From contig CAYPYS010000003.1 of the NCBI GenBank assembly GCA_964415355.1, positions 68,156 through 132,155 on the forward strand: a DNA stretch of 64,000 nucleotides. Reading direction: 5' to 3'. This document shows, one piece after another, positions 468-64,000 of the stretch (its first letter is position 1; the number at the start of each line of letters is the position of its first letter). The notes below the pieces were generated by a model that was given only the letters and a program-made list of their open reading frames with translations, was not told the origin of the DNA and searched no databases. Source of the stretch: an uncultured Planctomycetia bacterium. Lineage in GTDB: Bacteria; Omnitrophota; Gorgyraeia; Gorgyraeales; Gorgyraeaceae. The position numbers and the translations under genes are program-made.

Positions 468-504
468 TAACTTTACACTTTAACGTTGTTAAAGTGTAAA
501 GTTA
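468..504. repeat. palindromic intergenic element copy 1 (perfect 16-bp arms)
   Basis: taactttacactttaacgttgttaaagtgtaaagtta; supplies trxA stop. Confidence 0.9.
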
Positions 505-822
505 AGCAAGCATTTCCTCTATCTTTTCTGTAATATTATCCTTAGAGGCAACTCCTACGACTCTTGTAAATTCCTTTCCATCCTTGAATAATATAATAGT
601 AGGTATATTCATCACGCCGAACTTTGTAGCAACAGCCATTGCGTCGTCTATATTGAGCTTCGCGACCTTGCATCTTCCTTTGTACTCGTTCGCTAGCTGC
701 TCTATAATAGGGGCTATCATCTTGCATGGCATGCACCACGTCGCCCAGAAATCCACGATTACAGGTTTGTCTGATTGCAAAACCTCGGCTTCGAAATTTT
801 CTTGTCCCAGTTGCAACATCAT
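502..822 (-). CDS. trxA: thioredoxin
   Basis: WCMPCK active-site motif, ~107 aa from MM start; stop codon is the terminal TTA of repeat copy at 468..504. Confidence 0.8.
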   Translation of the reverse strand: MMLQLGQENFEAEVLQSDKPVIVDFWATWCMPCKMIAPIIEQLANEYKGRCKVAKLNIDDAMAVATKFGVMNIPTIILFKDGKEFTRVVGVASKDNITEKIEEMLA

Positions 823-1646
823 TCTCTCCCTTCTCTGTCTCCTGGCCCTATAATACACCCGGTAGGACACTTTTTAACACAGATGTCCAATGCTTTTGCA
901 TCGTTCGTCTTTTTATAATCCAATCTTGATAGGTTATTCTCTACAATGAACGCGCCCTTCGAGAGCTTTTCGCAAACCTTACATGCAATACAACCTGCCT
1001 TGCATGCATTTTTCACAAAAGTTATTTTGTCGCGAGACAGGCACTTAACATAATACATTTCTCTTGCATCTTCAAGAGAAATAATATCTTTAGGACAAGT
1101 AGCCACGCATTTGCCACATGCAGTGCATTTATCAGGGTCGACTACAGGAATACCGGCTTTCCTCATGTGGATAGCGTCAAAAGGACATATCGCAACGCAA
1201 TCCCCAAAACCAAGACATCCAAATTTACATATTTTCTGGCCATCGGCGATCAAGCTCGCTGCTCGGCAAGTCTGAACACCTTCGTATAAAAACTTGTCCT
1301 TCGCATTCTTGCCTCCGCCGCACTTGACCTGTGCTATCTTTTTCTGCACAGAGACCCTCTCGGTGCCAAGTATCTCTGCTATCTTAAAATACACTTCTTC
1401 CCCGCCAGCAGAACAACTAGTCAGACTCGCGTCTCCTTTTGCGATAGATTCTGCCAATGCAGCGCATCCTGCTTTTCCGCAGGCCCCGCAATTAGAGCCC
1501 GGTAGCGCCGAAAGCACCCTGTCTATCTTGGGGTCGACTTCGACTCTGAATATCCTGGAGGCAAAAGCCAGGCCCAATCCAAAAAGAACGCCCATGCTCA
1601 ACATTATAATAATAGGCACGATCATATTAAAACCTGAATCCTGCAA
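819..1646 (-). CDS. rnfB: Rnf complex subunit B (N-terminal TM, Fe-S, two 4Fe-4S ferredoxin motifs)
   Basis: CGACGKAGC plus CKFGCLGFGDCVAICP and CTACGKCVATCP motifs. Confidence 0.85.
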   Translation of the reverse strand: MQDSGFNMIVPIIIMLSMGVLFGLGLAFASRIFRVEVDPKIDRVLSALPGSNCGACGKAGCAALAESIAKGDASLTSCSAGGEEVYFKIAEILGTERVSVQKKIAQVKCGGGKNAKDKFLYEGVQTCRAASLIADGQKICKFGCLGFGDCVAICPFDAIHMRKAGIPVVDPDKCTACGKCVATCPKDIISLEDAREMYYVKCLSRDKITFVKNACKAGCIACKVCEKLSKGAFIVENNLSRLDYKKTNDAKALDICVKKCPTGCIIGPGDREGRE

Positions 1647-3777: not shown

Positions 3778-3818
3778 CTTAAGTTTACATTTCAACAACG
3801 TTAAAGTGTAAACTTAAG
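3778..3818. repeat. element copy 2 (AAGTTT subfamily)
   Basis: cttaagtttacatttcaacaacgttaaagtgtaaacttaag, between rnfG and rnfD. Confidence 0.9.
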
Positions 3819-3824
3819 CAATGA

Positions 3825-4436
3825 CTACCTCTCTATTATCTCCAATCCTTTTTCTCTTATCGAATCTAGCACGGCCTCGCTGGATATAGTCGCTCCGGAA
3901 ATAGCATGGATGTTAGCGTCTTCGCAAAATTCCAGCTTATAAATATTGCATCCGTTAAACTGTTCGGTAAAATAAGGAAGTCTTTCCCTCTCAGCTTCTC
4001 TCTCTTGTAAAAAAAACTGTTTTAACGCCTTTGATATTGTCTTATCAGATACTACCTCTGTTATTTTAGCCCCGAGGCCCGGAGTTTCGTTCTGACTGAG
4101 CATCCTTACTCCGGTTATGGTGCCGTCTTTTTTTATCCCTACCATTGTCTCGATGACACTGGAATAACCATATTTTTTTGCGATAAACACATAGCCCTGC
4201 GGCCTGCCGCTGGACCCCTTGAACACTTCCCAGTATTTTACAGCGCCATTCTCTTCTACAGGTTCAATACGGTCCCCCACTGTCGCCGGGATTACCTGCT
4301 CCAAGGCATTCTCTTTGACCATAGCCTCTTGCATTTCTATTTTTGGTTTTGTAATAAAATAAACACTGGCCAAGACAGACGCTGCCACTAAATTCACCAA
4401 ACCCAGCACCAATGTAAACCGCAAAATACTCTTCAT
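3825..4436 (-). CDS. rnfG: Rnf complex subunit G (FMN-binding)
   Basis: Single N-terminal TM, ETPGLGAKI and SGATIS flavinylation motifs; lies upstream of rnfD (non-canonical order). Confidence 0.85.
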   Translation of the reverse strand: MKSILRFTLVLGLVNLVAASVLASVYFITKPKIEMQEAMVKENALEQVIPATVGDRIEPVEENGAVKYWEVFKGSSGRPQGYVFIAKKYGYSSVIETMVGIKKDGTITGVRMLSQNETPGLGAKITEVVSDKTISKALKQFFLQEREAERERLPYFTEQFNGCNIYKLEFCEDANIHAISGATISSEAVLDSIREKGLEIIER

Positions 4437-4443: not shown

Positions 4444-4480
4444 TAACTTTACACTTTAACGTTGTTGAAATGTAAAGTTA
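4444..4480. repeat. element copy 3 (opposite orientation)
   Basis: taactttacactttaacgttgttgaaatgtaaagtta, between rnfC and rnfG. Confidence 0.9.
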
Positions 4481-5785
4481 ACTCTTTGCTTTTCTCTTGG
4501 CTAACTTTATAAGCTGCAATAGCGGTATCTTCGACGGGCATACATAGTCGCACGAGCCGCATTCAATGCAGTCAAGCGGACTATAAGAATTCGCTATGTC
4601 AAATCTATTATTTTGCGCACCGAGGCCGATCATGCATGGCATGAGACCTGCGGGGCACGCTTCAATGCATCGCGAGCATCTTATGCAACTTACCTCACCC
4701 GGAGATTTAAAACTTTCGTCCAAGACAAGGATGCCCGAAGTCCCTTTTACAACCGGCGCATCTAAACTAAATTGCGCAATCCCTGTCATAGGCCCACCCA
4801 TTATAATCTTATAAATATTGCGCTCGGCATCGAATCCGCAAAATTCCAATAAATCTTTTATGGGCGTGCCTATCCTCGCTAAGACATTCTTAGGCTCTTT
4901 TAAAAAACTGCCTGATACCGTAACAACCCTTTCATACAATGGCTTGCCGAAATATACTGCCTCATAAATAGCAAAAACCGTCTGAACATTGCTTACAACG
5001 CATCCTATGTCAAGCGGCAACCCACCAGAAGGTACCTCGCGATTAAAAAGCGTCTTTATAAGCTGCTTTTCACCCCCTTGCGGATACTGTGTCTTTAGCT
5101 TAACTATCCTGACGCCTGACGCCTGAGGCCTGAGGCTGATTAGCGCATTTCTCAGTTTTTCTATAGCATCTATCTTATTGTCTTCTATCCCTATTATTAT
5201 ATCTTTTACGCCCAGCGCACAGGCAACAAGATCAATCCCCAGAAGGATCTCTTTTGGCCGCTCAAGCATCAAGCGATGATCACAGGTAAGAAGAGGCTCG
5301 CATTCTGCACCATTTATAATCAAGGTGTCAATATTTTTGCCACGGGGAAGACTCAGCTTAACGTGCGTGGGAAACGCCGCCCCTCCCAATCCTACGATAC
5401 CCGCATCTTTTACGATATTCACGATCTCTTCTTTCGAAAAAGAAGGCTTATCCGTTCGTGAACCTGAAAATGCCTTGATATCTTTGCCGTCAGATTCTAC
5501 TGTAATAGACTTAAAAGAACCAGCAATGGGATGAACATTATCTTCAATAGCAATCACCTTGCCGGATACGCTAGAATGCAAGTTGCTGGAGATAAAGCTC
5601 TTGCCCCTGGCAATAAGAGAGCCTGTCTTTACGCTGTCCCCAATATTAACAATTGGTTCTGAAGGCAAGCCTGCGTGTTGACTCAAGGCGAGCATGACCT
5701 TTTTGGGTAAAGGTATTCTCTCGATCTTCTTTAGTATCGTAGATTCTTTAAGTTCGGGTGGGTGTATAAAATTCATCTTGGACAT
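4478..5785 (-). CDS. rnfC: Rnf complex subunit C
   Basis: 435 aa, two CxxCxxCxxxCP ferredoxin motifs (CIRCSRCIEACP, CIECGSCDYVCP), NADH-binding fold. Confidence 0.9.
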   Translation of the reverse strand: MSKMNFIHPPELKESTILKKIERIPLPKKVMLALSQHAGLPSEPIVNIGDSVKTGSLIARGKSFISSNLHSSVSGKVIAIEDNVHPIAGSFKSITVESDGKDIKAFSGSRTDKPSFSKEEIVNIVKDAGIVGLGGAAFPTHVKLSLPRGKNIDTLIINGAECEPLLTCDHRLMLERPKEILLGIDLVACALGVKDIIIGIEDNKIDAIEKLRNALISLRPQASGVRIVKLKTQYPQGGEKQLIKTLFNREVPSGGLPLDIGCVVSNVQTVFAIYEAVYFGKPLYERVVTVSGSFLKEPKNVLARIGTPIKDLLEFCGFDAERNIYKIIMGGPMTGIAQFSLDAPVVKGTSGILVLDESFKSPGEVSCIRCSRCIEACPAGLMPCMIGLGAQNNRFDIANSYSPLDCIECGSCDYVCPSKIPLLQLIKLAKRKAKS

Positions 5786-6033: not shown

Positions 6034-6070
6034 TAACTTTACATTTCAACAACGTTAAAATGTAAAGTTA
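6034..6070. repeat. element copy 4
   Basis: taactttacatttcaacaacgttaaaatgtaaagtta; supplies MFS stop. Confidence 0.9.
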
Positions 6071-7892: not shown

Positions 7893-7929
7893 TAACTTTA
7901 CACTTCAACGTTGTTGAAATGTAAAGTTA
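7893..7929. repeat. element copy 5
   Basis: taactttacacttcaacgttgttgaaatgtaaagtta. Confidence 0.9.
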
Positions 7930-8526
7930 GGCGGGTTGAGCTTTTTTGGGCAGGAAAAATCTGAATACCTTTTTTACGAATCTGAACATCATCTTCAAAA
8001 ACCATATGGAAAACAGGACAAAAAGGATTACGATTATGCCGGTTATAATAGGGTGATTGACGATCATCCAAAGCGCACCCACCACCATGGCATCTTCTGA
8101 TACGCTGGCAATCGAATTAGTAACCGGCTCCGGTGAAGTATTTATAGCAACGCGGGCGGTGGCCTTTGTCAGGTGAGAGTCCATCGCGACTGTTCCGCTT
8201 AAAAGAGCAGCCGGGATCTGCGCAACCGGGCCTATGTCAGCCATCGCCATATAAGATAATGCAGCGCCGCCTATAGGCCTTATAAAAGTATGAACGGAAT
8301 CCCATACAGAATCAACCAGAGGGATCTTATCAGCAAAAAACTCAACCGCATACATCAATATAGCGACAGCGATAATAAGAGGATTGGAAATAACATCTAA
8401 ATTTCCGGGCAGATTTATAACGCCCATCTTATCCATAATTCCCAATCCCGCGATAGTCAGATAAAGATTCACGCCAGATGCCCAGGAACCACCTAAAAGG
8501 ACTCCTAAATTACTTAACACTTCCAT
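7927..8526 (-). CDS. DUF4126-like membrane protein
   Basis: 199 aa polytopic; pattern resembles DUF4126 family. Confidence 0.4.
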   Translation of the reverse strand: MEVLSNLGVLLGGSWASGVNLYLTIAGLGIMDKMGVINLPGNLDVISNPLIIAVAILMYAVEFFADKIPLVDSVWDSVHTFIRPIGGAALSYMAMADIGPVAQIPAALLSGTVAMDSHLTKATARVAINTSPEPVTNSIASVSEDAMVVGALWMIVNHPIITGIIVILFVLFSIWFLKMMFRFVKKVFRFFLPKKAQPA

Positions 8527-9976: not shown

Positions 9977-10013
9977 TAACTTTACATTTCAACAACGTTA
10001 AAGTGTAAAGTTA
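9977..10013. repeat. element copy 6; encodes NFTL-stop of ApbE
   Basis: taactttacatttcaacaacgttaaagtgtaaagtta. Confidence 0.9.
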
Positions 10014-13042: not shown

Positions 13043-13103
13043 ATACGCTTATTATAATACATGGGGAGGTATTTTTGGAAGTAAATATATTTTTGACCTG
13101 CAT

Positions 13104-13139
13104 AACTTTACACTTTAACGTTGTTGAAATGTAAAGTTA
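13104..13139. repeat. element copy 7, abutting tRNA-Asp 3' end
   Basis: taactttacactttaacgttgttgaaatgtaaagtta. Confidence 0.9.
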
Positions 13140-13216: not shown

Positions 13217-13243
13217 CAAAATTTTCTCTTTTAACGTGCGATA

Positions 13244-20409: not shown

Positions 20410-20446
20410 TAACTTTACATTTCAACAACGTTAAAGTGTAAAGTTA
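20410..20446. repeat. element copy 8 (ntpE/pyrE junction)
   Basis: consensus copy; supplies pyrE stop. Confidence 0.9.
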
Positions 20447-21022: not shown

Positions 21023-21059
21023 TAACTTTACATTTCAACAACGTTAAAGTGTAAAGTTA
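21023..21059. repeat. element copy 9 (pyrE/pyrF junction)
   Basis: consensus copy; supplies pyrF stop. Confidence 0.9.
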
Positions 21060-22602: not shown

Positions 22603-22639
22603 TAACTTTACATTTCAACAACGTTAAAGTGTAAAGTTA
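22603..22639. repeat. element copy 10 (pyrK/pyrD junction, inside operon)
   Basis: consensus copy; supplies pyrK stop. Confidence 0.9.
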
Positions 22640-23438: not shown

Positions 23439-23477
23439 CTTAAGTATACACTTTAACATTGTTAAAATGTATACTTA
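23439..23477. repeat. element copy 11 (GTATAC subfamily)
   Basis: cttaagtatacactttaacattgttaaaatgtatacttaa. Confidence 0.85.
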
Positions 23478-23495: not shown

Positions 23496-24728
23496 TTAGA
23501 AGAGGTTGAGCTGTTTTTCCTCTTTGACCTCTGCTCCTTTTAATATATCTATCTTACCGTATTCACCGTCAAATCCCGGGAGTATCTCAACATTCCCGTT
23601 TCTCACGTTCAAAATCGCCTTTGCTATCTTGCTAGGAAGTTTCTTCAAAAGATCGCCCTCGCTCACCTCAGTAAGTACCTCGAATTCTGTGCCGACTCTC
23701 GGGACTATAGCTCGATACTCTGCTGCTACTGCCTTGGAGCCATCGCCTACGCCAAGGACATCCGAGATGATTTCGGCAAGCGGCACCATTCTCTTGTAAG
23801 GGATCCTTGCCTCTGGCTCAAATCCCTCAGGCCTATCTGCAAGCTCGTCTACTCTGTTCATGACACCTACTGTCAAAGGTTTGCCGCAGGCAGGGCAAAT
23901 ATTTTTATTCTTCTTGCTTTCTGAAGGGCTAAATCTCACATTGCAATTCCTGTGACCATCATAGTGATATTTTCCTTCTTCTGGAAAGAACTCAATGGTA
24001 TGAAGGAATTTTTTTCTGTCTTTCTTTTTCAAAACATCTACTATAGAGTTATAACTCATCTCTGTATCAAATACATTTGCCTCTCGCCCGATCTTCTGTG
24101 GTGAGTGTGAATCAGAATTTGATATCAGGCTGAATCTATCGAGCTTACTCCAGCGCCAGTTCATGCCAGGATCTGACGATAACCCTGTTTCGAGCGCATA
24201 GATATCCTTTGAATATTCTTCGAAACATTCTTCTATTGTATCAAATCCTGATTTAGACCCGAACAATGAAAACCACGGGGTCCATATATGGCCAGGCACG
24301 ACGAATACGTCTTTGCTTATCCCAAAGAGAATCTCGACAAGATCTTTTGCATCCATACCTATAATAGGTCTCCCGTCAGCCGAGAGGTTCCCGTAACCGG
24401 AAAGCGTTGAATTTATTTTTTCAGCGATCTTGAAGCTCGGCGCGAAAATAACATTGTGGATCTTTCTGACCTTTCCGCCTTTAGAATAGATGCAGGATAT
24501 CTCACCCGTAAGAATAAAATTCACTCCGTTGTACTCAAATAAACCATTGCCTGAATCCTTCAAGGTATCTTTTAATTCTTCCAACCATAGGTAATGCGTA
24601 AAGTCACCCGTGCCCAATAGTGATATACCTTTGATCTTTGCGAATTCCGAAAGAGTCTTCACCTCCATCTGAGGACTGGTGGCACGGCTATACTTAGAAT
24701 GGATATGAAAATCAGCTACAAACTTCAT
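23496..24728 (-). CDS. PHP-domain protein with C4 zinc ribbon, endonuclease Q-like (TIGR00375-type)
   Basis: N-terminal FHIHSKYSRATSP PHP motif, CPACGKPL zinc finger, 410 aa; embedded between pyrK and pyrC. Confidence 0.45.
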   Translation of the reverse strand: MKFVADFHIHSKYSRATSPQMEVKTLSEFAKIKGISLLGTGDFTHYLWLEELKDTLKDSGNGLFEYNGVNFILTGEISCIYSKGGKVRKIHNVIFAPSFKIAEKINSTLSGYGNLSADGRPIIGMDAKDLVEILFGISKDVFVVPGHIWTPWFSLFGSKSGFDTIEECFEEYSKDIYALETGLSSDPGMNWRWSKLDRFSLISNSDSHSPQKIGREANVFDTEMSYNSIVDVLKKKDRKKFLHTIEFFPEEGKYHYDGHRNCNVRFSPSESKKNKNICPACGKPLTVGVMNRVDELADRPEGFEPEARIPYKRMVPLAEIISDVLGVGDGSKAVAAEYRAIVPRVGTEFEVLTEVSEGDLLKKLPSKIAKAILNVRNGNVEILPGFDGEYGKIDILKGAEVKEEKQLNLF

Positions 24729-27676: not shown

Positions 27677-27715
27677 CTTAAGTATACTTTCAACAATGTT
27701 AAAAGTATACTTAAG
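27677..27715. repeat. element copy 12 (GTATAC subfamily, shortened arms)
   Basis: cttaagtatactttcaacaatgttaaaagtatacttaag. Confidence 0.8.
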
Positions 27716-27738: not shown

Positions 27739-28962
27739 CTAGAGGGCTACGACGTCGCCCTTGTGATAGAGCGACAAAAACAACAACAGATATTCCTTTA
27801 AGTGGCGCGTAAGGAGAAAATTCTGCCTTATGTGCTCACGGCCGTTCTCACCAAGTCTCTTTGCGTACTCTGGTGCGCTCAAAAGCTGTTTTATATAAAA
27901 CGCTGCTCCTTCCACGGTATTGCATAAAATTCCACTATACTTATGTTTTATCTGCAAAGGTATGCCTCCGACAGCTGACCCAACCACTGGCTTGGCTTTC
28001 CACAGGGCCTCTGAGACAGTAAGCGCAAACCCTTCTCTGATGGACTTCTGAAGCACCACATCTGAGACGCGCTGGAATGCATTGATCTCATAAGGTATAT
28101 CTTCCACCATAAGCGCTGTGATATCAGGATCGTCACCCGCAGCCTCTTTCACTTGACCGTATATCTTGTCTGACTCAGGATCATCAGCAGCGCGATTGCC
28201 CACCAGCAACAATTGACAATCAATGTATTTCTTTACCAGCTTGTATGCCTCTATCACTCCAACTGGATCTTTAAGAGCATCATATCTTGAGATCTGACAT
28301 ATCAAAGGCTTTTTCCCAGGATCGACTTTGTATTTATTAAGCACAGTGTCGATTTCCTTCTGCGTTAACTCTCTGTTTTTATCGCTAAAAGGATCGATAG
28401 ATGGGGAAATAAGAACTTGCCTTGTCTTCATTTTATGAGCAAAATGCGCGCTTGAAAAAATCGCCGCGTGATACTTGTTTGCGAGACCTTCTAAAAATCC
28501 CCATACCTTTCTATCGGGATTCGATACATCGACATGGCAACGCCATATCCATTTGCTATTTTTCATCTTAGACTTGCGCTGTATCAGTCCTATCGGCTGC
28601 GGGTCATGTATAAACATGATATCGCCGTATAAATTCATCTCCCTGACGTTTTCCCTGCTAATATCATTGAATATCTTCCACATCTTTCTTGTGATCTTCG
28701 CCTTTTTTCCATGCAATGCATTATGTATGCTCTTAGTCACTTCAAAAAAATCAGCACTGCCTTTTATGACGTCCCACTGTGCGCTAACGCCAAGCTCCTG
28801 CATAAGAGGAGTGATCTTGCTCAGTATCTCTGCGACACCGCCACCCATGGCAGTAGAGTTTATATGCTGGATCGTCTTGCCGCGCAAATAGTCAGCCAAG
28901 AGCCTCAGCTCCTCTATCGTACTTCTTCCCACTACTTCTTCGTATCTATCTATTCTTCCCAT
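27739..28962 (-). CDS. treT: trehalose glycosyltransferring synthase (GT4)
   Basis: INSTAMGGGVAEILSKITPLMQELGVSAQWDVIKGSADFFEVTKSIHNALHG matches archaeal TreT closely. Confidence 0.7.
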   Translation of the reverse strand: MGRIDRYEEVVGRSTIEELRLLADYLRGKTIQHINSTAMGGGVAEILSKITPLMQELGVSAQWDVIKGSADFFEVTKSIHNALHGKKAKITRKMWKIFNDISRENVREMNLYGDIMFIHDPQPIGLIQRKSKMKNSKWIWRCHVDVSNPDRKVWGFLEGLANKYHAAIFSSAHFAHKMKTRQVLISPSIDPFSDKNRELTQKEIDTVLNKYKVDPGKKPLICQISRYDALKDPVGVIEAYKLVKKYIDCQLLLVGNRAADDPESDKIYGQVKEAAGDDPDITALMVEDIPYEINAFQRVSDVVLQKSIREGFALTVSEALWKAKPVVGSAVGGIPLQIKHKYSGILCNTVEGAAFYIKQLLSAPEYAKRLGENGREHIRQNFLLTRHLKEYLLLFLSLYHKGDVVAL

Positions 28963-29643: not shown

Positions 29644-29680
29644 TAACTTTACATTTCAACAACGTTAAAGTGTAAAGTTA
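29644..29680. repeat. element copy 13
   Basis: consensus copy; supplies otsB stop. Confidence 0.9.
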
Positions 29681-31958: not shown

Positions 31959-31995
31959 TAACTTTACATTTCAACAACGTTAAAATGTAAAGTTA
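31959..31995. repeat. element copy 14
   Basis: taactttacatttcaacaacgttaaaatgtaaagtta. Confidence 0.9.
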
Positions 31996-32005: not shown

Positions 32006-32326
32006 TTACGATTCCATAATGTCTATCTTAACCTTAGACTTATATCTAAGAGGGTCCTGACCAAAAAACTCTTCAAGAAAATGAGTATTAGAAAGGCGAT
32101 TATCGGTGATATATCGATACCAATCCCAAAATTCAGAGGAAGCATCTTTCTTATTGGGTATAAGATCGGCTCTGTGACCTTTGTATAAAAACTGCACTAT
32201 TGGATTATAAGGATCCGGGTTCACCCAGCTTATCAGGGCCCTTATCAATATAAGCCAATAAATTAGCGTTAGCACTACATTCAATACGCTCGCCAATGCT
32301 TGTAGTAGATTTGAAAGAATAAACAT
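32006..32326 (-). CDS. small membrane protein, YggT-like N-terminus
   Basis: [16 protein letters not shown] resembles YggT motif; 106 aa. Confidence 0.3.
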
Positions 32327-33444: not shown

Positions 33445-33481
33445 TAAGTTTACATTTCAACAACGTTAAAGTGTAAAGTTA
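33445..33481. repeat. element copy 15 (hybrid AAGTTT / AAAGTT arms)
   Basis: taagtttacatttcaacaacgttaaagtgtaaagtta; supplies rsmI stop. Confidence 0.9.
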
Positions 33482-34186: not shown

Positions 34187-34226
34187 TTAAGTATACACTT
34201 TAACATTGTTGAAATGTATACTTAAG
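34187..34226. repeat. element copy 16 (GTATAC subfamily)
   Basis: cttaagtatacactttaacattgttgaaatgtatacttaag. Confidence 0.85.
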
Positions 34227-34241: not shown

Positions 34242-36071
34242 TTATTCCACAGTAACGCTTTTTGCTAGATTCCTGGGCTGGTCTACGTCACAACCTCTTT
34301 TAACAGCGATATAATATGCAAGAAGCTGCAACGGCAGCGCTGAAACAATCGGAGAGAAAAGTTCGTCTATCTTTGGTATATACGCGACCTCTTTTGTAAA
34401 CCTCTTGATCCTCGCATCGCCTTCGGTCGCGACTATGATGACCTTTCCTTTCCTAGCGCGTATCTCCTGGATATTGGAAAGCATCTTGTCATATGTGCTG
34501 GATGCCGGCGCGATACAAACAACTGCCCTGTATTCATCTATCAACGCAATCGGCCCATGCTTCATCTCCCCCGCAGCATAGCCTTCTGCGGGTATATATG
34601 AAATTTCTTTGAGTTTCAAGGCGCCTTCCAGGGCAGTCGGAAAATTCAGATTTCTACCAAGATACAAAAATGACCCAAAATGTAAATGCTTGCCGGCTAT
34701 CTTTTTAATAAGATCTTTTTTATTCAATATCTTATGCAGAACCACTGGGACCTTTGCAAATTCTCTTATCGCATATCTCTTGAGCTCCTTCTTAAGTAAA
34801 GATCTTTTCTCCGCAATATAGAACGACAATAGATACAATATTGCGAGCTGCGCAGTATATGCCTTTGTCGAGGCGACACCGATCTCCGGCCCGGCGTATG
34901 TATATAAGACATCATCCGATATCCTGACCAAACTCGACCCCACTACATTACATATGGATAAGATCCTAGCGCCTCTCGTCCTCGCCTCTTTAACAGCAGC
35001 CAAGGTATCTGCTGTCTCTCCTGATTGACTGATAGCTATAACGAGAGTGTTCTTGTTTACAATAGGCTCCCTGTACCTGAATTCCGACGACAAATCTGTA
35101 CATACTGGTATACGAGTGAATTTCTCGATCAAATACTTACCGACCAGGCCAGCGTGATAAGCAGTGCCGCAGGCAAGTATTAATATATTGGAAATTTTAG
35201 CTATGTCTTTGTCGTTTATATTCAACCCTTCCAGTACAATTTTGGAATCTCTCAAGCGCGAACTTATTATCTGCCTCAAGACCCTTGGCTGCTCGTGTAT
35301 CTCTTTCAACATAAAATGCGGATAACCCGATTTCTGAGCGCTGGAAATAGTCCATTTAATGGAATCTATTTTTTTCTTCTTTTCTTTGCCGCCCGAGTCA
35401 AATACCCTTACCTTATCTTTTGTCAAAACCGCTATCTCTCCGTCGTCAAGGTACATTACCTGCTTCGTGTGCTTTAATACCGCGGGTATATCTGAAGCGA
35501 TAAAATTTTCACTCTTACCTAATCCCACAATAAGCGGGCTCTCTCTTCTGGCGCCCACTAGTTTATGAGGCTGGTCCTTGCAGATAATACCTACGGCGAA
35601 AGATCCCTTTAGCTCTTTTATTGTCTTTAAAACAGCTTTTTCTAAATCCTCCCTATAATATTTCTCAAGAAGATGGGATACAACTTCTGTGTCTGTCTCT
35701 GATTTAAATCTGTGGCCTTCTTTGATCAACCGCTCTTTTAATTCGCTGAAATTTTCTATTATACCATTGTGGACTACTGAAAAATTCTCTGAACAATCGA
35801 CGTGTGGATGCGCGTTAATATTGGTGGGCGCGCCATGAGTGGCCCAGCGGCTATGTCCTATGCCTACTCTGCTGCCGACCAAAGCCTTTTTCCATTTTAT
35901 AGAAGCGACTAAATCCTTAATCTTGCCCGATCTCTTTGCGATATTGATCTTATTGCCTTTTATGACGCTCACGCCAGCTGAATCATAGCCACGATATTCA
36001 AGCTGCTTAAGCCCATCCAAAAGAACGGATAATGCATCCTTCTTGCCAATATACCCTACTATGCCACACAT
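34242..36071 (-). CDS. glmS: glutamine--fructose-6-phosphate aminotransferase
   Basis: MCGIVGYIG N-terminal Cys, 609 aa, two SIS domains. Confidence 0.9.
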   Translation of the reverse strand: MCGIVGYIGKKDALSVLLDGLKQLEYRGYDSAGVSVIKGNKINIAKRSGKIKDLVASIKWKKALVGSRVGIGHSRWATHGAPTNINAHPHVDCSENFSVVHNGIIENFSELKERLIKEGHRFKSETDTEVVSHLLEKYYREDLEKAVLKTIKELKGSFAVGIICKDQPHKLVGARRESPLIVGLGKSENFIASDIPAVLKHTKQVMYLDDGEIAVLTKDKVRVFDSGGKEKKKKIDSIKWTISSAQKSGYPHFMLKEIHEQPRVLRQIISSRLRDSKIVLEGLNINDKDIAKISNILILACGTAYHAGLVGKYLIEKFTRIPVCTDLSSEFRYREPIVNKNTLVIAISQSGETADTLAAVKEARTRGARILSICNVVGSSLVRISDDVLYTYAGPEIGVASTKAYTAQLAILYLLSFYIAEKRSLLKKELKRYAIREFAKVPVVLHKILNKKDLIKKIAGKHLHFGSFLYLGRNLNFPTALEGALKLKEISYIPAEGYAAGEMKHGPIALIDEYRAVVCIAPASSTYDKMLSNIQEIRARKGKVIIVATEGDARIKRFTKEVAYIPKIDELFSPIVSALPLQLLAYYIAVKRGCDVDQPRNLAKSVTVE

Positions 36072-36090: not shown

Positions 36091-36129
36091 TTAAGTTTAC
36101 ATTTCAACAACGTTAAAATGTAAACTTAG
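36091..36129. repeat. element copy 17 (AAGTTT subfamily)
   Basis: ttaagtttacatttcaacaacgttaaaatgtaaacttag. Confidence 0.9.
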
Positions 36130-36134: not shown

Positions 36135-36764
36135 TCAGCATAATATACCAACATCCACAACGACAACATCCCCTGCATGCTCTGGACCTTTATTTATATA
36201 GAACCCTTTTTTTGCAAACTGCATAGTCGCGGTCTTTTTGGCCTTTACAGCCTCACCCAGGACTTCGCCTGTATCAGCGTCAAGGCCGGACGGCACATCA
36301 GCAGAGAGAATCGGAATGCCGTAGACATTCAAATCTTTTATTATATCCCTTGCCGCTCCTTTGACCTCGCCTTTCAGCCCAATGCCGAATATAGCATCTA
36401 TAATCAAATCGCAATGTAATTTAGCGGGAGATAAAATCTCTTCGGCCTCCACGCCTGATTTCTTTAATATTTCCAAATTTATCTTTGGGTCATTTTTTAT
36501 TTTCGACTTCTGCCCGATTATGTGCACCTCTACCTCGATACCTCGTCTTGCAAGATACCTGGCAGCTACGAATCCGTCTCCCCCATTATTGCCTGGCCCG
36601 CAGAATATTGCAACTTTTTTTCGCGCGCCTCCTCCAAGCATTTCCAGAGCTATATCGCTCACTCCTCGACCAGCATTCTCCATAAGCACAATAGAAGGCA
36701 CGCCAATATCCTCTATTGTCCTGCGATCCAGCTCCTGCATTTCTGAGCTCGAAACAGTTTTCAT
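36135..36764 (-). CDS. nnrE: NAD(P)H-hydrate epimerase (YjeF N-terminal domain)
   Basis: Start MKTVSSSEM; GPGNNGGDG motif; track N-terminus is repeat read-through. Confidence 0.7.
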   Translation of the reverse strand: MKTVSSSEMQELDRRTIEDIGVPSIVLMENAGRGVSDIALEMLGGGARKKVAIFCGPGNNGGDGFVAARYLARRGIEVEVHIIGQKSKIKNDPKINLEILKKSGVEAEEILSPAKLHCDLIIDAIFGIGLKGEVKGAARDIIKDLNVYGIPILSADVPSGLDADTGEVLGEAVKAKKTATMQFAKKGFYINKGPEHAGDVVVVDVGILC

Positions 36765-36812
36765 GGTGCTATATATTATAACACCTGCCGCTCTTCCCTT
36801 CAACCTCGGCCT

Positions 36813-36866
36813 AACTTTACATTTCAACGTTGGGGAAGCCTGTGCCACGAAGTAGTATGTAAAGTT
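36813..36866. repeat. element copy 18 split by ~26-bp insertion in the loop
   Basis: taactttacatttcaacgtt-ggggaagcctgtgccacgaagtagta-tgtaaagtt, in divergent promoter region. Confidence 0.7.
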
Positions 36867-36883
36867 GAAGCGTTTAGCTTATT

Positions 36884-47094: not shown

Positions 47095-47131
47095 TAACTT
47101 TACATTTCAACAACGTTAAAGTGTAAAGTTA
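47095..47131. repeat. element copy 23
   Basis: consensus copy. Confidence 0.9.
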
Positions 47132-48394
47132 GCGCCAGGTGAGCCAGAGAAAGATGTAAGCTGATGATACTGCGGCGAGGGTAAACGGAAGGCCTATCTT
47201 TAAAAAATCCAAGAAACCTACTTTGTAGCCACGCTCTCTGAGCATTCCCATTGAGACAATATTGGCTGAAGCGCCTATAGGAGTTATATTCCCCCCTAGA
47301 GTAGCGCCTATCAATAGGCCAAATAAGAATAACTCTGGCGCAGCGCCCATGCTGGATGCAAGGATCTTTGCGACAGGTATCATGGTTATGACATAGGGTA
47401 TGTTGTCTATAAATGCAGAGAATAAAACCGAGGCCCACACGATCAAGGTAAACGTAAGGAAGATGTTCCCACCTGTTACATCTGATATAAAATTTGCCAG
47501 GTCCTCTATTATGCCCACGTGGCTAAGCGTACCTATGAGGATAAATACACCTATCAAGAACAGAAATGTCCTCCAGTCTATATTTTTTATAAATGAAAAC
47601 TCCTCTTTACTGGAGATCTTATGCCAGAGAACCCCTATGCCGCCAAAAAATAGGCAGATCAGTGCGATCGAATAATAGGGCTTTTGCGTGATAAAACTGG
47701 AAACTCCTAGACTAGCTATCATAAGAGACATAAGAATAGTTGGCATCCATGTTTTAACCTTTACCTGCTCGATCCTTTCTGCGCGCTGCCTGAAACGCCT
47801 AAAAATAAGATACAAAACTACGAATGAAGCCACTGCGCCTATTTCCACTGCAAATGCAATGCCAGGTCTTCCTTTCATCCAGAAAAAGTCCATGAAATTC
47901 ATTCTATGGAGCATGGCAAGAATGATGCTGGGCGAATCTCCTATCATTGTCGCAGATCCCTGAAGATTAGAGCTCACGGCTATGCTTATCAAAAACGGAA
48001 TCGGATTGGCTTTTAATTTTTTGGCGACCTCGAATGCGATCGGCGCCACTATAATGACCGTTGCGACATTTTCTGTAAAACTGGATATGAAGCTTGAGAG
48101 AAGCGCGATGAACAAAATCGCCATTCCTACATTTTTGGATTTAGAGACGAGCCTTGTTGCAAGAAATCCAGGCACATTGGAATATATAAATAAGCCTGAG
48201 AGAATCATTGAGCCTAAAAATACTCCCAAGACATTAAAGTTTATGCTCGACAGTGCTTGTTTTAGATCAATTGCCTGGGAAATTAAAAGTATGGCAACGC
48301 CGCTGAATAGCGGGATAAGTGGATTGACTTTGCGGTTGAATAATATAACAGAAGCGTAAGTCAGCAGAAATATAGTAACTACAAAAATCTTCAT
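47129..48394 (-). CDS. ArsB/NhaD-superfamily anion permease
   Basis: 421 aa polytopic with internal symmetry. Confidence 0.45.
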   Translation of the reverse strand: MKIFVVTIFLLTYASVILFNRKVNPLIPLFSGVAILLISQAIDLKQALSSINFNVLGVFLGSMILSGLFIYSNVPGFLATRLVSKSKNVGMAILFIALLSSFISSFTENVATVIIVAPIAFEVAKKLKANPIPFLISIAVSSNLQGSATMIGDSPSIILAMLHRMNFMDFFWMKGRPGIAFAVEIGAVASFVVLYLIFRRFRQRAERIEQVKVKTWMPTILMSLMIASLGVSSFITQKPYYSIALICLFFGGIGVLWHKISSKEEFSFIKNIDWRTFLFLIGVFILIGTLSHVGIIEDLANFISDVTGGNIFLTFTLIVWASVLFSAFIDNIPYVITMIPVAKILASSMGAAPELFLFGLLIGATLGGNITPIGASANIVSMGMLRERGYKVGFLDFLKIGLPFTLAAVSSAYIFLWLTWR

Positions 48395-49082: not shown

Positions 49083-49119
49083 TAACTTTACATTTCAACA
49101 ACGTTAAAATGTAAAGTTA
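49083..49119. repeat. element copy 24
   Basis: taactttacatttcaacaacgttaaaatgtaaagtta. Confidence 0.9.
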
Positions 49120-49126: not shown

Positions 49127-50350
49127 TTACTTTATTGGTCTTTCTTTTAGAGGCTTAAATGTAACGCCGCTTTCAGCCCCTGGGATAGGTGCAACAGGCT
49201 CTGTAAGGAGAAATTCCCCCTTATCGATCCAGCCTTTGAGAGTCTGGGCTATTTCAACTGCCTTTGAGTAGCTGGACAAAGCGCCTGTCGGCACTTCTTT
49301 CCCCTTCACTTGAATCTTGCCACTCTTAAGCTGAGTATAATTCACCTCTCCAAGACTTCCTGGTTTGCAATTTGGGTAGGAATCGCTATAGTCAACTATC
49401 TGTGTCCAGATTTCTTCGTCTTTTACCGCTGTAAATTTACATATCTCTTCATTAAGTATAGGTATAGGCACACCTACGCCGACTGTGAGTGTAACGCCAT
49501 AGCCCTGAAAAGTCGTACCTACTAAATAGTCGGAAGACATTTCTTTTAAATCTCCGATTACTGCCAGCGTACCTGCTGGTGCTTGAGGAATTCCAGTGTT
49601 TTTGCGCTTAACTGTTGGCGCGTGCTGAGTACCCTGCCATGCCACATAACCTGTGCCTCCTCCGAGGAATATCTTTGTGCCGATACCTAACGTCTTGTAG
49701 TGAGGATCATTTAATAGTGGTGAAAGCTGGCCTGCGCTGCAATAATAAGCATTGCCAAGCTGCGGCCTCAAGGTGCCCATGTAAGTATAAATCATCCTGT
49801 CAGAAAGATTCACGGCACAGTTATAATTCTGGTACACGTTCCTGATATTAAAGAGAACTGTTTCATTCAGATCTTTTATATTAATAAGCGTCTCTAGTTT
49901 CTTGCGAGGATAACAGTCGGTGCCATAAGCTGTAGCAGAAAGCCTAAGATCCTTCCCTGCAACAAGCTCCTCTATTACATGCGCGCCGCCATATTTAAAC
50001 TCGCCTGGATAGACTTTATTGGTAGGATCGTCCTCGGGCATAGCGGTCGCACCTAAAAATAAATCAACTGCTGCAAAGCCAGCGTATACAGGCACGTCAT
50101 TCAACGTAACCTTGCCTCCGCCGAGCTTTATCCTGGGCTTGGAGTGACCTATATTAAAATACGCACCTGATGAACACATTGGCCCGAACGTCCCTGTGGT
50201 TACAACATCCACTTTCGCCGCTGTCTTCTCAAGACCATCTCGCTCCACCAAGTCAATTATCTCTTCTGCTGTGACAACCACAGCCTGCTTCTTTTTGATC
50301 TTTTCATTGATCTCTCTAATAGTCTTCGCCATTCCAAGCCTCCCTTTCAT
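49127..50350 (-). CDS. DUF39/COG1900 homocysteine-biosynthesis (sulfur-incorporation) protein
   Basis: 407 aa; resembles methanogen-type COG1900 proteins. Confidence 0.5.
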   Translation of the reverse strand: MKGRLGMAKTIREINEKIKKKQAVVVTAEEIIDLVERDGLEKTAAKVDVVTTGTFGPMCSSGAYFNIGHSKPRIKLGGGKVTLNDVPVYAGFAAVDLFLGATAMPEDDPTNKVYPGEFKYGGAHVIEELVAGKDLRLSATAYGTDCYPRKKLETLINIKDLNETVLFNIRNVYQNYNCAVNLSDRMIYTYMGTLRPQLGNAYYCSAGQLSPLLNDPHYKTLGIGTKIFLGGGTGYVAWQGTQHAPTVKRKNTGIPQAPAGTLAVIGDLKEMSSDYLVGTTFQGYGVTLTVGVGVPIPILNEEICKFTAVKDEEIWTQIVDYSDSYPNCKPGSLGEVNYTQLKSGKIQVKGKEVPTGALSSYSKAVEIAQTLKGWIDKGEFLLTEPVAPIPGAESGVTFKPLKERPIK

Positions 50351-50363: not shown

Positions 50364-50400
50364 TAACTTTACACTTTAACGTTGTTGAAATGTAAAGTTA
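50364..50400. repeat. element copy 25
   Basis: consensus copy; supplies cysK stop. Confidence 0.9.
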
Positions 50401-51868: not shown

Positions 51869-51908
51869 TTAAGTATACACTTTAACATTGTTGAAATGTA
51901 AACTTAAG
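51869..51908. repeat. element copy 26 (chimeric arms GTATAC / AAACTT)
   Basis: ttaagtatacactttaacattgttgaaatgtaaacttaag. Confidence 0.8.
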
Positions 51909-56048: not shown

Positions 56049-56092
56049 TGTAAGTATACCATACCCCCCTACCCTATGTCAAGAAGAAACCT

Positions 56093-56130
56093 AACTTTAC
56101 ATTTCAACAATGTTAAAGTGTATACTTAAG
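56093..56130. repeat. element copy 27 (chimeric arms AACTTT / GTATAC)
   Basis: taactttacatttcaacaatgttaaagtgtatacttaag. Confidence 0.8.
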
Positions 56131-57287: not shown

Positions 57288-57328
57288 CTTAAGTATACAC
57301 TTTAACATTGTTGAAATGTATACTTAAG
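57288..57328. repeat. element copy 28 (GTATAC subfamily)
   Basis: cttaagtatacactttaacattgttgaaatgtatacttaag. Confidence 0.85.
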
Positions 57329-63974: not shown

Positions 63975-64000
63975 TAACTTTACATTTCAACAACGTTAAA
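63975..64000. repeat. element copy 30 (truncated by window end)
   Basis: taactttacatttcaacaacgttaaa. Confidence 0.8.

What the first reader, a model, noticed from the sequence alone, without database searches (positions are those of the whole stretch)
9977..10013. Element carries TAA in all six reading frames and routinely donates stop codons and C-terminal residues to upstream genes
In either orientation the element contains TAA at positions giving one stop per frame (taa-cttt..., ttTAAc/gtTAAag, gTAAag). At least 18 genes terminate on an element-encoded stop (trxA, MFS, apbE, pyrE, pyrF, pyrK, otsB, rsmI, lgt, thyA, cysK, the radical SAM gene, the Memo fusion, the small sulfite reductase and others). 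ApbE ends ...NFTL* and CobA ends ...TLHFNNVKV*, with those residues translated from the element. The element thus behaves like an insertion that is harmless at gene 3' ends because it self-terminates translation in any frame.
Basis: seen in the sequence. Interest (0 to 1): 0.6.

Follow-up and report, generated by a model that had tools for sequence, protein, structure and literature searches.

The report
Stop-codon-hugging palindromic repeat family
A 37-41 base hairpin-forming repeat sits behind almost every gene or operon segment of this uncultured Omnitrophota bacterium, usually sharing its terminal TAA with the gene's stop codon and occasionally rewriting a protein's last few residues; it is a new, unusually dense relative of the bacterial REP repeats, not a new kind of system.

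Summary
The 37-nt palindrome at 9977-10013 has 27 full copies in 64 kb, none expected by chance, plus four variant or cut copies. The master carries TAA in all six frames. Nineteen genes stop on it, and the named genes check out.

Seventeen of the 19 genes stop on the element's first TAA, against one third expected. Only ApbE (NFTL*) and CobA (TLHFNNVKV*) read into it, as does a SpeE-like gene into a variant copy. CobA's native tail (VVKNGHKS*) really was replaced. Six-frame TAA occurs in 5.7% of composition-matched palindromes.

The element is a REP-like hairpin repeat:
- it shows compensatory stem changes;
- it fills about three quarters of gaps of 35 nt or more;
- it follows a tRNA and lies inside the rnf and pyr operons;
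- it is dense in a related genome sharing 83-88% nucleotide identity in syntenic stretches, absent from three more distant relatives, and replaced by two copies of a core-sharing hairpin in a fourth.

Each genome has its own master sequence at shared sites. One copy is flipped in place in a relative. G·U wobbles are favoured in the mRNA sense.

No transposase, target duplication or clean empty site was found, and function is unmeasured. REP ends supplying stop codons is already published.

The parts
468..504 (.). Full copy, type A outer stem; its terminal TAA is the stop of trxA (502..870, - strand)
3780..3816 (.). Full copy, type B (TAAGTTTACA..TGTAAACTTA); 8 nt after the TAG stop of the FMN_bind (rnfG-like) gene 3825..4436; lies inside the rnf cluster
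4444..4480 (.). Full copy, type A; terminal TAA is the stop of rnfC (4478..5785); the next gene starts 7 nt after the element
6034..6070 (.). Full copy, type A; terminal TAA is the stop of the MFS transporter gene
7893..7929 (.). Full copy, type A; terminal TAA is the stop of the DUF4126 gene 7927..8526
9977..10013 (.). The flagged copy (master sequence); apbE reads into it in frame 2 and stops at element position 14, giving the tail NFTL*; in relative L148 the same site holds the exact reverse complement, giving NFTFQQR*
13103..13139 (.). Full copy directly abutting the 3' CCA end of tRNA-Asp (13140-13217, - strand)
20410..20446 (.). Full copy; terminal TAA is the stop of pyrE; in the related genome the native TAG sits at this position and the element lies 25 nt further on
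21023..21059 (.). Full copy; terminal TAA is the stop of pyrF; lies inside the pyr cluster
22603..22639 (.). Full copy; terminal TAA is the stop of pyrK (IWG*; the related genome has IWP* with a type B copy); pyrD starts about 8 nt after it
23441..23477 (.). Full copy, type C (TAAGTATACA..TGTATACTTA); 18 nt after the TAA stop of 23496..24728; the spacer is a degenerate lone arm of an older copy
27679..27713 (.). 35-nt variant with matching 1-nt deletions in both arms, so pairing is kept; lies after gene 27739..28962 and upstream of the PyrR leader
29644..29680 (.). Full copy; terminal TAA is the stop of otsB
31959..31995 (.). Full copy 10 nt after the TAA stop of 32006..32326
33445..33481 (.). 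Hybrid copy (one arm type B, the other type A); terminal TAA is the stop of rsmI
34188..34224 (.). Full copy, type C; 17 nt after the stop of the glmS-like gene 34242..36071; the related genome has an unrelated palindrome at this site
36092..36128 (.). Full copy, type B; 6 nt after the TGA stop of the YjeF_N gene 36135..36848
36812..36867 (-). 56-nt 'type X' variant: same outer stem, but an insert carrying a CCAC-UUCG-GUGG-like mini-hairpin; lies between divergent genes; nine 60-nt copies occur in the related genome
39114..39148 (.). 35-nt short-stem variant; the SpeE-like gene 36884..39145 (+ strand) ends inside it with the tail LKLTFNIVES*
39156..39192 (.). Hybrid copy; terminal TAA is the stop of the AmmeMemoRadiSam B/A fusion gene (39190..40665); stands 7 nt from the previous copy between convergent genes
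40865..40901 (.). Full copy, type C; terminal TAA is the stop of the AmmeMemoRadiSam radical SAM gene
43259..43295 (.). Full copy; terminal TAA is the stop of lgt
44733..44769 (.). Full copy; terminal TAA is the stop of the thymidylate-synthase-like gene
47095..47131 (.). Full copy; terminal TAA is the stop of the ArsB/DASS-like permease gene 47129..48394
49083..49119 (.). Full copy 7 nt after the TAA stop of 49127..50350; the orthologous copy in the related genome is 37/37 identical while its flanks are about 88% identical
50364..50400 (.). Full copy; terminal TAA is the stop of cysK (FKS*; the related genome has FK*, then 5 nt, then the element)
51870..51906 (.). Hybrid copy; terminal TAA is the stop of the ABC ATPase gene; followed by an A-tract and a perfect TTGACA-16-TATAAT promoter match
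56092..56128 (.). Hybrid copy (type A arm plus type C arm) 4 nt after the stop of the SBF-like transporter gene; followed by TTGACA-18-TATACT; distant relative L054 has a core-sharing hairpin at the same gene end
57290..57326 (.). Full copy, type C; terminal TAA is the stop of the small sulfite reductase gene, at the same residue position as the native TAA in relative L052
60099..60135 (.). Master copy inserted where cobA and hemB overlap in relatives; cobA reads in frame 3 and stops at position 30 (TLHFNNVKV*), replacing the native VVKNGHKS*
63975..64000 (.). Copy cut by the window end; complete in L058:6825-6861, where its TAA is the stop of the ThiI-like gene and a TTGACA promoter match follows

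Best explanation
This is a lineage-specific family of REP-like (repetitive extragenic palindrome) elements in an uncultured Omnitrophota genome. Each unit is a 37-nt imperfect palindrome; with its self-complementary flanks it is 39 nt (C-TAAC...GTTA-G) or 41 nt (CT-TAAG...CTTA-AG). It folds into a 17-19 bp A/U-rich hairpin with a 3-nt loop.

Shown:
- The family is very dense, about 0.42 copies per kb, and fills about three quarters of the intergenic gaps of 35 nt or more.
- Stem pairing is kept by compensatory changes.
- Copies sit at or within a few bases of gene 3' ends. They also follow a tRNA and lie inside the rnf cluster and a PyrR-led pyr cluster.
- Because the unit begins with TAA, about two thirds of copies share that TAA with the upstream stop codon.
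- A minority of genes run into the unit and are closed by its internal TAAs, which gives short element-encoded tails.

Inferred:
- The unit spreads and is renewed by an unidentified copying process, either transposition by an unseen enzyme or conversion from other copies. The grounds are its patchy distribution among relatives, a different master sequence per genome at shared sites, hybrid-arm copies, a lone-arm remnant beside a full copy, and one copy flipped in place.
- Copies persist at stop codons because that is the position in a tightly packed genome where a self-folding, stop-bearing insert does least harm. The folded stem brings the stop codon back next to the following ribosome-binding site.
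- The unit is transcribed with the upstream gene and folds in the mRNA. There it most plausibly acts as a 3' protective or insulating hairpin, not as a strong terminator.
For: - Family and significance: 22-27 copies against 0 expected. Single arms never occur alone in the window or the first 51 loci, about 0.38 Mb in all.
- Hairpin: predicted free energy -13 to -24 kcal/mol, z-scores -5 to -10. On 38 distinct sequences 94.6% of cells pair, 6 of 17 pairs change on both sides, and 0 of 500 shuffles reach the observed covariation score. One copy has matching 1-nt deletions in both arms.
- Placement: elements occupy 27 of about 35 gaps of 35 nt or more. One abuts the CCA end of tRNA-Asp. Copies lie between rnfC, rnfG and rnfD and between pyr genes downstream of a PyrR leader. 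Consensus promoters follow elements 51870 and 56092 directly.
- Stop relation: in the window 17 genes stop on the first TAA, 2 read in and 7 copies lie downstream of a native stop. In the related genome the counts are 33, 12 and 44.
- Replaced tails.
- Patchy distribution: 110 copies in the related genome CAYULJ01, whose syntenic stretches are 83-88% identical to the window. No copies in 8-20 kb loci of four relatives whose CobA is 79-84% identical. Only a core-sharing hairpin without TAA ends occurs in L054/L055, at two orthologous gene ends.
- Turnover: 14 of 17 window copies have a partner at the same site in CAYULJ01, but mostly of another subfamily. Each genome has its own master: 13 of 31 copies are identical in the window's genome, and 38 + 31 of 110 in CAYULJ01. 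CAYULJ01 has a copy at L018:5377 where the window has none. A lone arm stands beside a full copy at the 23441 site in both genomes, and the full copy there is decayed in CAYULJ01 but perfect in the window. The ApbE copy is the exact reverse complement in L148, with the same junctions.
- Sense bias: copies with a single stem mismatch show G·U rather than A·C in the sense of the upstream gene, 34 against 10, p = 4e-4.
- Precedent: REP ends supplying stop codons, and G·T bias taken as a sign of transcription (PMC3733652).
Against: - No transposase was seen. Pfam lists covering about 41 kb of the roughly 81 kb read from the source contig, and the relatives' loci, show no Y1/RAYT or IS enzyme next to copies.
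- No target-site duplication can be shown, because the flanking bases belong to the palindrome and are specific to each subfamily.
- No clean empty site was found. The only presence/absence difference lies in poorly alignable non-coding DNA.
- Ten population contigs 99.9-100% identical to the window show no insertion polymorphism.
- Site conservation, together with a 37/37-identical orthologous copy whose flanks are 88% identical, fits purifying selection on a functional signal as well as it fits a mobile element.
- How a different subfamily, including the outermost bases inside the last codon, comes to occupy the same site in two genomes is not explained.
- The G·U bias cannot be separated from replication direction, because almost all genes are co-oriented with it.
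- No expression data were available.
Confidence: 0.6

Rival explanations
1. Dedicated gene-punctuation signal. The hairpin would be a functional RNA or DNA signal, such as a factor-dependent terminator, an RNA-processing site or a 3'-end stabiliser. It would be required at gene ends and recognised by a lineage-specific protein. Within-genome uniformity and genome-specific master sequences would then reflect co-evolution with that protein, not copying.
For: - Copies sit at the same gene ends in genomes whose syntenic stretches are 83-88% identical, and even a hairpin sharing only the core sits at two of these ends in a more distant relative.
- One orthologous copy is 37/37 identical although its flanks have diverged.
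- At two sites the related genome carries a different palindrome instead.
- Canonical terminator matches are at chance level: 16 found against 15.4 expected, and 23 against 18.
- The one clearly canonical terminator occupies a gap that lacks the element.
- Strong promoters follow several copies.
- G·U wobbles are favoured in the mRNA sense.
- One copy directly follows a tRNA.
Against: - Copies lie inside the rnf and PyrR-led pyr clusters with the next start codon 7-20 nt away, so strong termination there would cut the operons.
- Stems are A/U-rich and have no U-tract.
- Orientation relative to the gene is mixed, 16 against 11 in the window.
- Relatives whose CobA is 79-84% identical do without the element in the same syntenic region.
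- At least one copy is decaying in the related genome.
- Co-evolution would need coordinated double substitutions at each of the many sites.
Confidence: 0.2
2. The element inserts near gene 3' ends without regard to reading frame, and survives mainly because it carries stops in all six frames.
For: - All six frames are closed in the master sequence.
- ApbE, CobA and the SpeE-like gene in the window, and 12 genes in the related genome, do end on internal stops with element-coded tails.
- CobA's native tail was replaced.
- The high-copy forms have TAA ends, whereas the low-copy relatives of the hairpin (L001, L054) do not.
Against: - Frame use is 17:1:1 in the window and 33:5:7 in the related genome, against 1:1:1 expected.
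- Proteins stopping on the first TAA have native length.
- Many copies lie downstream of native stops, after a tRNA, or in a 5' region.
- Subfamily C lacks one frame's stop within the 37 nt.
- Six-frame closure is expected in 6-23% of such palindromes.
Confidence: 0.12
3. Miniature inverted-repeat transposon of an IS630- or IS5-type element. It would insert at TA or YTAR and duplicate the target, so that insertion into a TAA or TAG stop rebuilds a TAA.
For: - The ends read Y-TA-A...T-TA-R, and the base after the element in the gene direction is A or G in all 17 fused cases. That is what a TA duplication inside a TAR stop would leave.
- The family is multi-copy and occurs in both orientations.
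Against: - The flanking bases are subfamily-specific and self-complementary: C/G with type A, CT/AG with type B. They therefore belong to the unit, not the target.
- The ratio of G to A after the element (11:6) does not follow TAG:TAA usage (8:21).
- No longer element with the same ends and no lone arms flanking a gene were found in the window or the first 51 loci, about 0.38 Mb.
- The cobA/hemB site shows 64 nt replacing 10 nt, not a clean insertion.
- 37 nt is far below usual MITE size.
Confidence: 0.06
4. DNA-level site. The palindrome would be a paired DNA-uptake sequence or the binding site of a dimeric DNA-binding protein, kept uniform by molecular drive.
For: - Density is near one per 2 kb and the sequence is genome-specific, both reminiscent of uptake-sequence dialects.
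- Inverted uptake-sequence pairs act as terminators in Neisseria (my own knowledge).
- An 11-nt core, CTTTACACTTT, is shared across relatives.
Against: - Half-sites never occur singly or inside coding sequence.
- Compensatory stem variants coexist within one genome, which argues for structure over sequence read-out.
- Nothing was found in viral contigs.
Confidence: 0.03

Closest known systems
REP / BIME elements of Proteobacteria (GTAG- and CGTC-tagged REPs, some linked to RAYT transposases)
   Same: - 20-40-nt imperfect palindromes in high copy.
- Mostly downstream of ORFs, between co-directional or convergent genes.
- Transcribed hairpins with G·T pairs.
- Termini of GTAG REPs often supply the TAG stop of the flanking ORF, and some units encode residues (PMC3733652).
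- REPs within 15 nt of a stop affect translation in E. coli (as cited in PMC12306157).
   Different: - No GTAG or CGTC tag; the ends are TAA/TTA and are themselves part of the stem.
- Units are single, not paired into REPIN-like doublets.
- No RAYT gene was seen.
- Density, and the share of copies fused to the stop (about two thirds in the window), are far higher than the roughly 11% of E. coli REPs lying within 15 nt of a stop.
- The host is Omnitrophota.
Bacterial MITEs with TA duplication (Correia/NEMIS, ERIC, RUP)
   Same: - Non-coding inverted-repeat units next to genes.
- Co-transcribed and folding into hairpins.
- Some ORFs end inside them (background cited in PMC3733652).
   Different: - Those are 70-300 bp with distinct terminal repeats, a demonstrable TA duplication and a parent IS.
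- Here the whole unit is one 37-41-nt stem-loop, with no duplication and no parent found.
Rickettsia palindromic elements (RPE)
   Same: Palindromic repeats that end up translated as part of host proteins.
   Different: RPEs insert in frame inside ORFs and add internal segments. Here only C-terminal ends are touched and translation stops within the unit.
Inverted DNA-uptake-sequence pairs downstream of genes (Neisseria, Haemophilus)
   Same: A genome-specific short sequence at about one per 1-2 kb, often as an inverted pair behind genes.
   Different: Uptake sequences are mostly single and frequent inside coding DNA. The arms of this element never occur alone.

Membership tests
REP elements (sensu Di Nocera 2013; RAYT-associated REPs) | Short (20-40 bp) imperfect palindrome repeated many times per genome | tested here: met
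   37-nt unit; 27 full copies in 64 kb against 0 expected; 110 copies in the loci of the related genome
REP elements (sensu Di Nocera 2013; RAYT-associated REPs) | Extragenic, mainly downstream of ORFs between co-directional or convergent genes | tested here: met
   26 of 27 copies lie at or within 18 nt after a gene or tRNA 3' end; single copies are shared by convergent genes in L014, L023 and L153:10967
REP elements (sensu Di Nocera 2013; RAYT-associated REPs) | Conserved GTAG or CGTC tetranucleotide tag at one end | tested here: not met
   The ends are (C)TAAC / (CT)TAAG and their complements; no copy has GTAG or CGTC
REP elements (sensu Di Nocera 2013; RAYT-associated REPs) | A cognate RAYT (Y1 transposase) gene flanked by the repeats | tested here: inconclusive
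   None appears among the Pfam-annotated genes covering about 41 kb of the roughly 81 kb read from the source contig; the middle of the window was annotated only in part. The rest of the genome could not be searched.
REP elements (sensu Di Nocera 2013; RAYT-associated REPs) | Stem mismatches biased to G·T in the transcribed sense | tested here: met
   34 G·U against 10 A·C among single-mismatch copies, p = 4e-4; confounded with replication direction
MITE (IS-derived miniature transposon) | Target-site duplication flanking the unit | tested here: inconclusive
   A TA...TA reading is possible, but the flanking bases are subfamily-specific parts of the palindrome, and no clean empty site was obtained
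MITE (IS-derived miniature transposon) | A parent IS with the same terminal repeats | tested here: not met
   No lone arms bracketing a gene in the window or the first 51 loci, about 0.38 Mb. This covers only the DNA sampled.
Intrinsic (Rho-independent) terminator | G+C-rich stem followed by a U-tract, placed at operon ends | tested here: not met
   A/U-rich stem and no T-run after it in the gene direction; copies lie inside the rnf and pyr clusters; a canonical terminator elsewhere in the window (10877-10904) looks quite different
DNA uptake sequences | Short motif that occurs singly, including inside coding DNA | tested here: not met
   Arms occur only as pairs
CRISPR array | Direct repeats regularly spaced by 25-50-nt spacers | tested here: not met
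   Spacing is 600-7300 nt, both orientations occur, and genes lie between copies
Any Rfam RNA family | Match to a curated covariance model | tested here: not met
   At gathering thresholds the window yields only tRNAs and a PyrR leader; at E up to 1, the 5 kb holding three element forms gives only chance-level matches

The most novel reading that the evidence does not exclude
The hairpin could be a genome-wide gene-punctuation device in this Omnitrophota lineage, recognised by a dedicated protein. That protein would either process or terminate RNA at the base of the stem, exactly at the UAA, or re-copy the master sequence into resident sites. Either activity would explain three things together: the fusion to stop codons, the conservation of sites, and a different uniform master sequence in each genome, down to the last codon of the upstream gene.
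Probability: 0.15. Interest if true: 0.8.

Novelty: new variant of a known kind. Interest (0 to 1): 0.5.

Why it matters
- Annotation. Gene ends here are set by a repeat. Protein C-termini differ between close relatives because a 37-nt palindrome was inserted (CobA), flipped (ApbE: NFTL* against NFTFQQR*) or swapped for another subfamily (PyrK: ...IWG* against ...IWP*). Gene callers and orthologue alignments will misread such ends.
- Evolution. The family is a compact natural case for asking how short palindromic repeats are kept uniform within a genome while staying at the same sites between genomes. That question is still open for REP and REPIN elements.
- Gene expression in an uncultured phylum. 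Canonical terminator matches are at chance level in the two 20-kb stretches scanned, and an A/U-rich hairpin sits on most stop codons. This makes a testable prediction for metatranscriptome 3'-end maps.

Tried and rejected
- Metagenome scan with PyrF, meant to collect near relatives for empty-site analysis.
- Population contigs carrying the identical CobA. All are 99.9-100% identical to the window and show no insertion polymorphism.
- Viral contigs: no copy of the element.
- Literature searches for Omnitrophota/Omnitrophica with palindromic, hairpin or repeat: nothing relevant. A search on MITE, stop codon and TAA gave nothing bacterial and relevant.
- Integron attC reading, rejected. The intervening genes are housekeeping genes (pyr, rnf, V-ATPase, cysK) and the copies lie in both orientations.
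- Site-specific recombination as the source of the hybrid copy at 56092, not supported. The 690-nt, two-gene indel beside it in the related genome is not bracketed by two elements.
- Promoter inside the element, rejected. TTTACA and TAAAGT/TATACT are 19 nt apart, and the scan calls promoters after the elements, not in them.
- The second palindrome seen at two sites of the related genome (CGTATATCG-rich) is not a family; it has only those two copies.
- Separating transcription from replication as the cause of the G·U bias failed. Only 1 of 37 informative copies lies on the other strand.
- One look-up of encoding contigs was lost because my otsB start codon differed from the called gene.
Full report
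**1. What is at the coordinates**

Window 9977-10013 is TAACTTTACATTTCAACAACGTTAAAGTGTAAAGTTA. It consists of two 17-nt arms that pair with each other around a 3-nt loop. There is one T·G position (11/27) and one C·A position (14/24).

The 31-nt core recurs 22 times with up to 3 mismatches, against 0.00 expected from shuffles. A looser search gives 27 full copies in the 64 kb. Four more are variant or cut copies. Single arms never occur alone.

Three outer-stem subfamilies coexist in the window, and their changes compensate each other:
- type A, TAACTTTACA..TGTAAAGTTA;
- type B, TAAGTTTACA..TGTAAACTTA;
- type C, TAAGTATACA..TGTATACTTA.

There are also hybrids whose two arms come from different types.

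As RNA the units fold at -13 to -24 kcal/mol, with z-scores of -5 to -10. On 38 distinct sequences from three genomes, 94.6% of cells pair. Six of the 17 pairs change on both sides, and no shuffle in 500 reaches the observed covariation score. One copy has lost one base from each arm at matching positions.

**2.

TAA lies at positions 1, 23 and 30 in one orientation and at 1, 14 and 30 in the other, so all six frames are closed. Nineteen genes end on an element stop, and NCBIfam confirms the names given. ApbE ends ...ADANFTL* and CobA ends ...[14 protein letters not shown] twentieth gene, the SpeE-like gene on the + strand, ends inside a short variant with the tail LKLTFNIVES*.

There are two caveats. 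Subfamily C lacks the third-frame stop unless the next base is A. And 5.7% of composition-matched palindromes have TAA in all six frames, while 23% have some stop in all six.

**3.

Seventeen of the 19 genes stop on the first three bases of the element. One uses frame 2 and one uses frame 3. Against equal frame use this gives p = 6e-7.

In the related genome the counts are:
- 33 on the first TAA;
- 12 reading in;
- 44 with a native stop 4-29 nt upstream, most often with a 4-5-nt spacer.

Genes in the window with no element nearby use TAA 21 times, TGA 15 times and TAG 8 times.

Several proteins that stop on the first TAA reach the end of their family profiles: pyrE 187/187, cysK 298/298 and pyrK 257/258. 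The small sulfite reductase ends at the same residue position as in the element-free relative L052.

The palindrome extends into the last sense codon. That codon is NNC in 11 of 19 window cases, with G following the element. In the related genome it is NCT in 28 of 36 cases, with AG following. Orthologous proteins therefore differ in their last residue according to the subfamily present. PyrK ends IWG* against IWP*, and RsmI ends FSS* against LSP*.

**4. Orthologue test of the two read-in genes**

*CobA.* About 60 orthologues inspected end ...PPAVLIVGEVVKNGHKS* or similar; only the window protein has ...[15 protein letters not shown]. In relatives L052, L054 and L056, cobA overlaps hemB by 17 nt. 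In the window, the 10 nt between GGAGAG and the hemB ATG are replaced by 64 nt: ACTC, the element, and a 23-nt purine-rich spacer carrying a new ribosome-binding site. The native tail was therefore replaced.

*ApbE.* Orthologues without the element end ...DKDGKLVKYP*. Three relatives with the element read it in frame 2:
- the window, with NFTL*;
- L148, with NFTFQQR*;
- L149, with KYTL*, from a type C copy placed 9 nt further on.

The window and L148 have the same junctions, but the element in one is the exact reverse complement of the other. That is a flip in place which changes the protein's end. The native N-[IL]-T near the end of some orthologues resembles NFT, and the native AATATTACA matches the element's AACTTTACA at 7 of 9 bases. 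I treat this as possibly chance.

**5. Where the copies sit**

All genes but one are on the - strand. Elements occupy 27 of about 35 gaps of 35 nt or more.
- One copy starts immediately after the CCA of tRNA-Asp.
- Copies lie between rnfC, the FMN_bind gene and rnfD.
- Copies lie within a pyr cluster: PyrR leader, pyrR, pyrB, pyrC, an unknown gene, pyrK, pyrD, pyrF, pyrE. There the next start codon is often 7-20 nt beyond the element, so strong termination at these copies is unlikely.
- Elsewhere an A-tract and a consensus promoter follow directly, after 51870, 56092, 9977 and the copy at the window's end.
- Canonical terminator matches are at chance level. One clear canonical terminator (10877-10904), conserved in relatives, lies in a gap that lacks the element.
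- Between the convergent genes at 39.1 kb, each gene has its own hairpin.
- Just outside the window, a single element supplies both stop codons of a convergent pair (L153:10967).

**6. Who has it**

Homologues name the organism as Omnitrophota. The window is part of the 140-kb contig JGI 3300009374 Ga0118720_1000061. Across about 81 kb of that contig there are 33 copies.

- many contigs of MAG CAYULJ01, with 110 copies in 49 loci;
- a single perfect palindrome in Omnitrophota UBA10183;
- a single perfect palindrome in CAJVXN01.

CAYULJ01 is syntenic with the window at 83-88% nucleotide identity. Relatives whose CobA is 79-84% identical (L052-L057) have no copy in 8-20 kb loci. However, L054 and L055 carry GCTTTACACTTTAGTCC.GGACTAAAGTGTAAAGC. 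It has the same 11-nt core and no TAA ends, and it lies directly after two gene ends that hold the element in the window. The core hairpin is therefore older and low-copy, and the form with TAA ends is the one that multiplied.

**7. Turnover**

Fourteen of 17 window copies have a partner at the same site in CAYULJ01, but the partner is usually another subfamily. Each genome has its own dominant sequence: 13 of 31 copies are identical in the window's genome, and 38 plus 31 of 110 in CAYULJ01.

Junctions are identical at most shared sites, but the spacing differs at pyrE (25 nt), otsB (10 nt) and cysK (5 nt). In each of these the window has the fused form.

Further signs of turnover:
- One orthologous pair is 37/37 identical although its flanks are about 88% identical.
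- Another partner is decayed, with 9 mismatches.
- At that site both genomes keep a degenerate lone arm beside the full copy.
- CAYULJ01 has a copy next to a tRNA fragment where the window has none.

These facts call for renewal of copies, by re-insertion at resident sites or by conversion. I cannot tell which, and neither explains easily how the outermost bases inside the last codon change with the subfamily.

No transposase, no duplication and no clean empty site were found.

**8. RNA or DNA**

Among copies with a single stem mismatch and an unambiguous upstream gene, the mismatch reads G·U in the gene's sense 34 times and A·C 10 times (p = 4e-4). This fits folding in the mRNA. It is confounded with replication direction, because nearly all genes are co-oriented with it.

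A 56-60-nt variant, type X, carries an insert with a CCAC-UUCG-GUGG mini-hairpin. Wherever the context can be read, it points the same way as the downstream gene.

No Rfam family matches any form of the element.

**9. Comparison with what is known**

The closest kind is REP elements. Di Nocera et al. [quoted passage not shown] In E. coli, REPs within 15 nt of a stop affect translation, and only about 11% of REPs lie that close (PMC12306157).

This family fails the GTAG/CGTC tag test, and a RAYT gene could not be assessed. It works like a REP but is not shown to be a member of the RAYT-linked families. It is not a MITE in the usual sense, not an intrinsic terminator, not an uptake sequence and not a CRISPR array (see the membership table).

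**10. Verdict**

The dominant arrangement, however, is an in-frame shared TAA at the native gene end.

The element is best described as a new, very dense, TAA-ended variant of REP-like hairpin repeats in Omnitrophota. Its copies are renewed in a genome-specific way. Its mobilising agent and its effect on RNA remain unknown.

Noticed in passing
window 36812-36867 (- strand sense); L004:2638, L010:154, L016:466, L022:1994, L026:1246 and 7441, L029:2869, L044:4840, L049:4431: A 56-60-nt 'type X' form of the element. It keeps the outer 12-bp stem, but one inner arm is replaced by TACCACTTCGTGGCACAGGCTTCCCC, which contains a CCAC-UUCG-GUGG mini-hairpin. In at least 7 of 10 copies it lies just upstream of a ribosome-binding site and start codon in the same orientation. 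That suggests a strand-specific role which the plain element lacks.
   Followed up: partly
window 7326-7356 and 7461-7491: An exact 31-nt direct repeat covering the 3' part of tRNA-Thr (7471-7546, - strand) plus 10 nt beyond it, 135 nt apart. It looks like the scar of an element that once integrated into the tRNA. The related genome has a copy of the palindromic element beside this fragment where the window has none.
   Followed up: partly
window 40836-40855; L041:4760; L052:6647 and 13468; L009 near 3300: A second, G+C-rich hairpin repeat (GTC)ATTCC(C/T)GCG...CGC(G/A)GGAAT(GAC) recurs at gene ends in this genome and in relatives that lack the TAA-ended element.
   Followed up: partly
window 11912-12394 and 12480-12964: Tandem duplication of a cupin-domain gene together with its promoter region (TTGAAA-16-TATAAT with an upstream TG); the two copies are 76-83% identical.
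   Followed up: no
window 27524-27636 (- strand): Rfam PyrR-binding leader (57.5 bits, gathering score 54) ahead of a Bacillus-like pyr cluster. The palindromic element interrupts this cluster at four places (23441, 22603, 21023, 20410).
   Followed up: partly
window 60076-60098 compared with L052/L054/L056: Relatives couple cobA and hemB through a 17-nt overlap. The window instead has a 23-nt purine-rich spacer (CGGGAAGAAGAGAGAGGGAGAAC) with a new ribosome-binding site after the element. Similar AGAGAGG-type tracts follow several other copies (31959, 36092).
   Followed up: partly
L153:10967-11003 (source contig, about 9.5 kb before the window start); also L014:3846 and L023:6669: One element lies between convergent genes, and both of its terminal TAAs serve as the two stop codons.
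   Followed up: partly
window 54161-54727: A 567-nt stretch with no ORF of 60 aa or more in my ORF tiling, no element and no Rfam match. It is the longest such gap in the window.
   Followed up: no
whole window: GC skew is negative in every 2-kb bin, and all genes but one (36884..39145) are on the - strand. Transcription and replication direction therefore cannot be told apart here.
   Followed up: partly
L046:5530-6220 compared with window 56049-56091: The related genome has two extra small genes, an ArsR-like regulator of 112 aa and a Cys-rich protein of 59 aa, between the promoter and the element. The window lacks both.
   Followed up: partly
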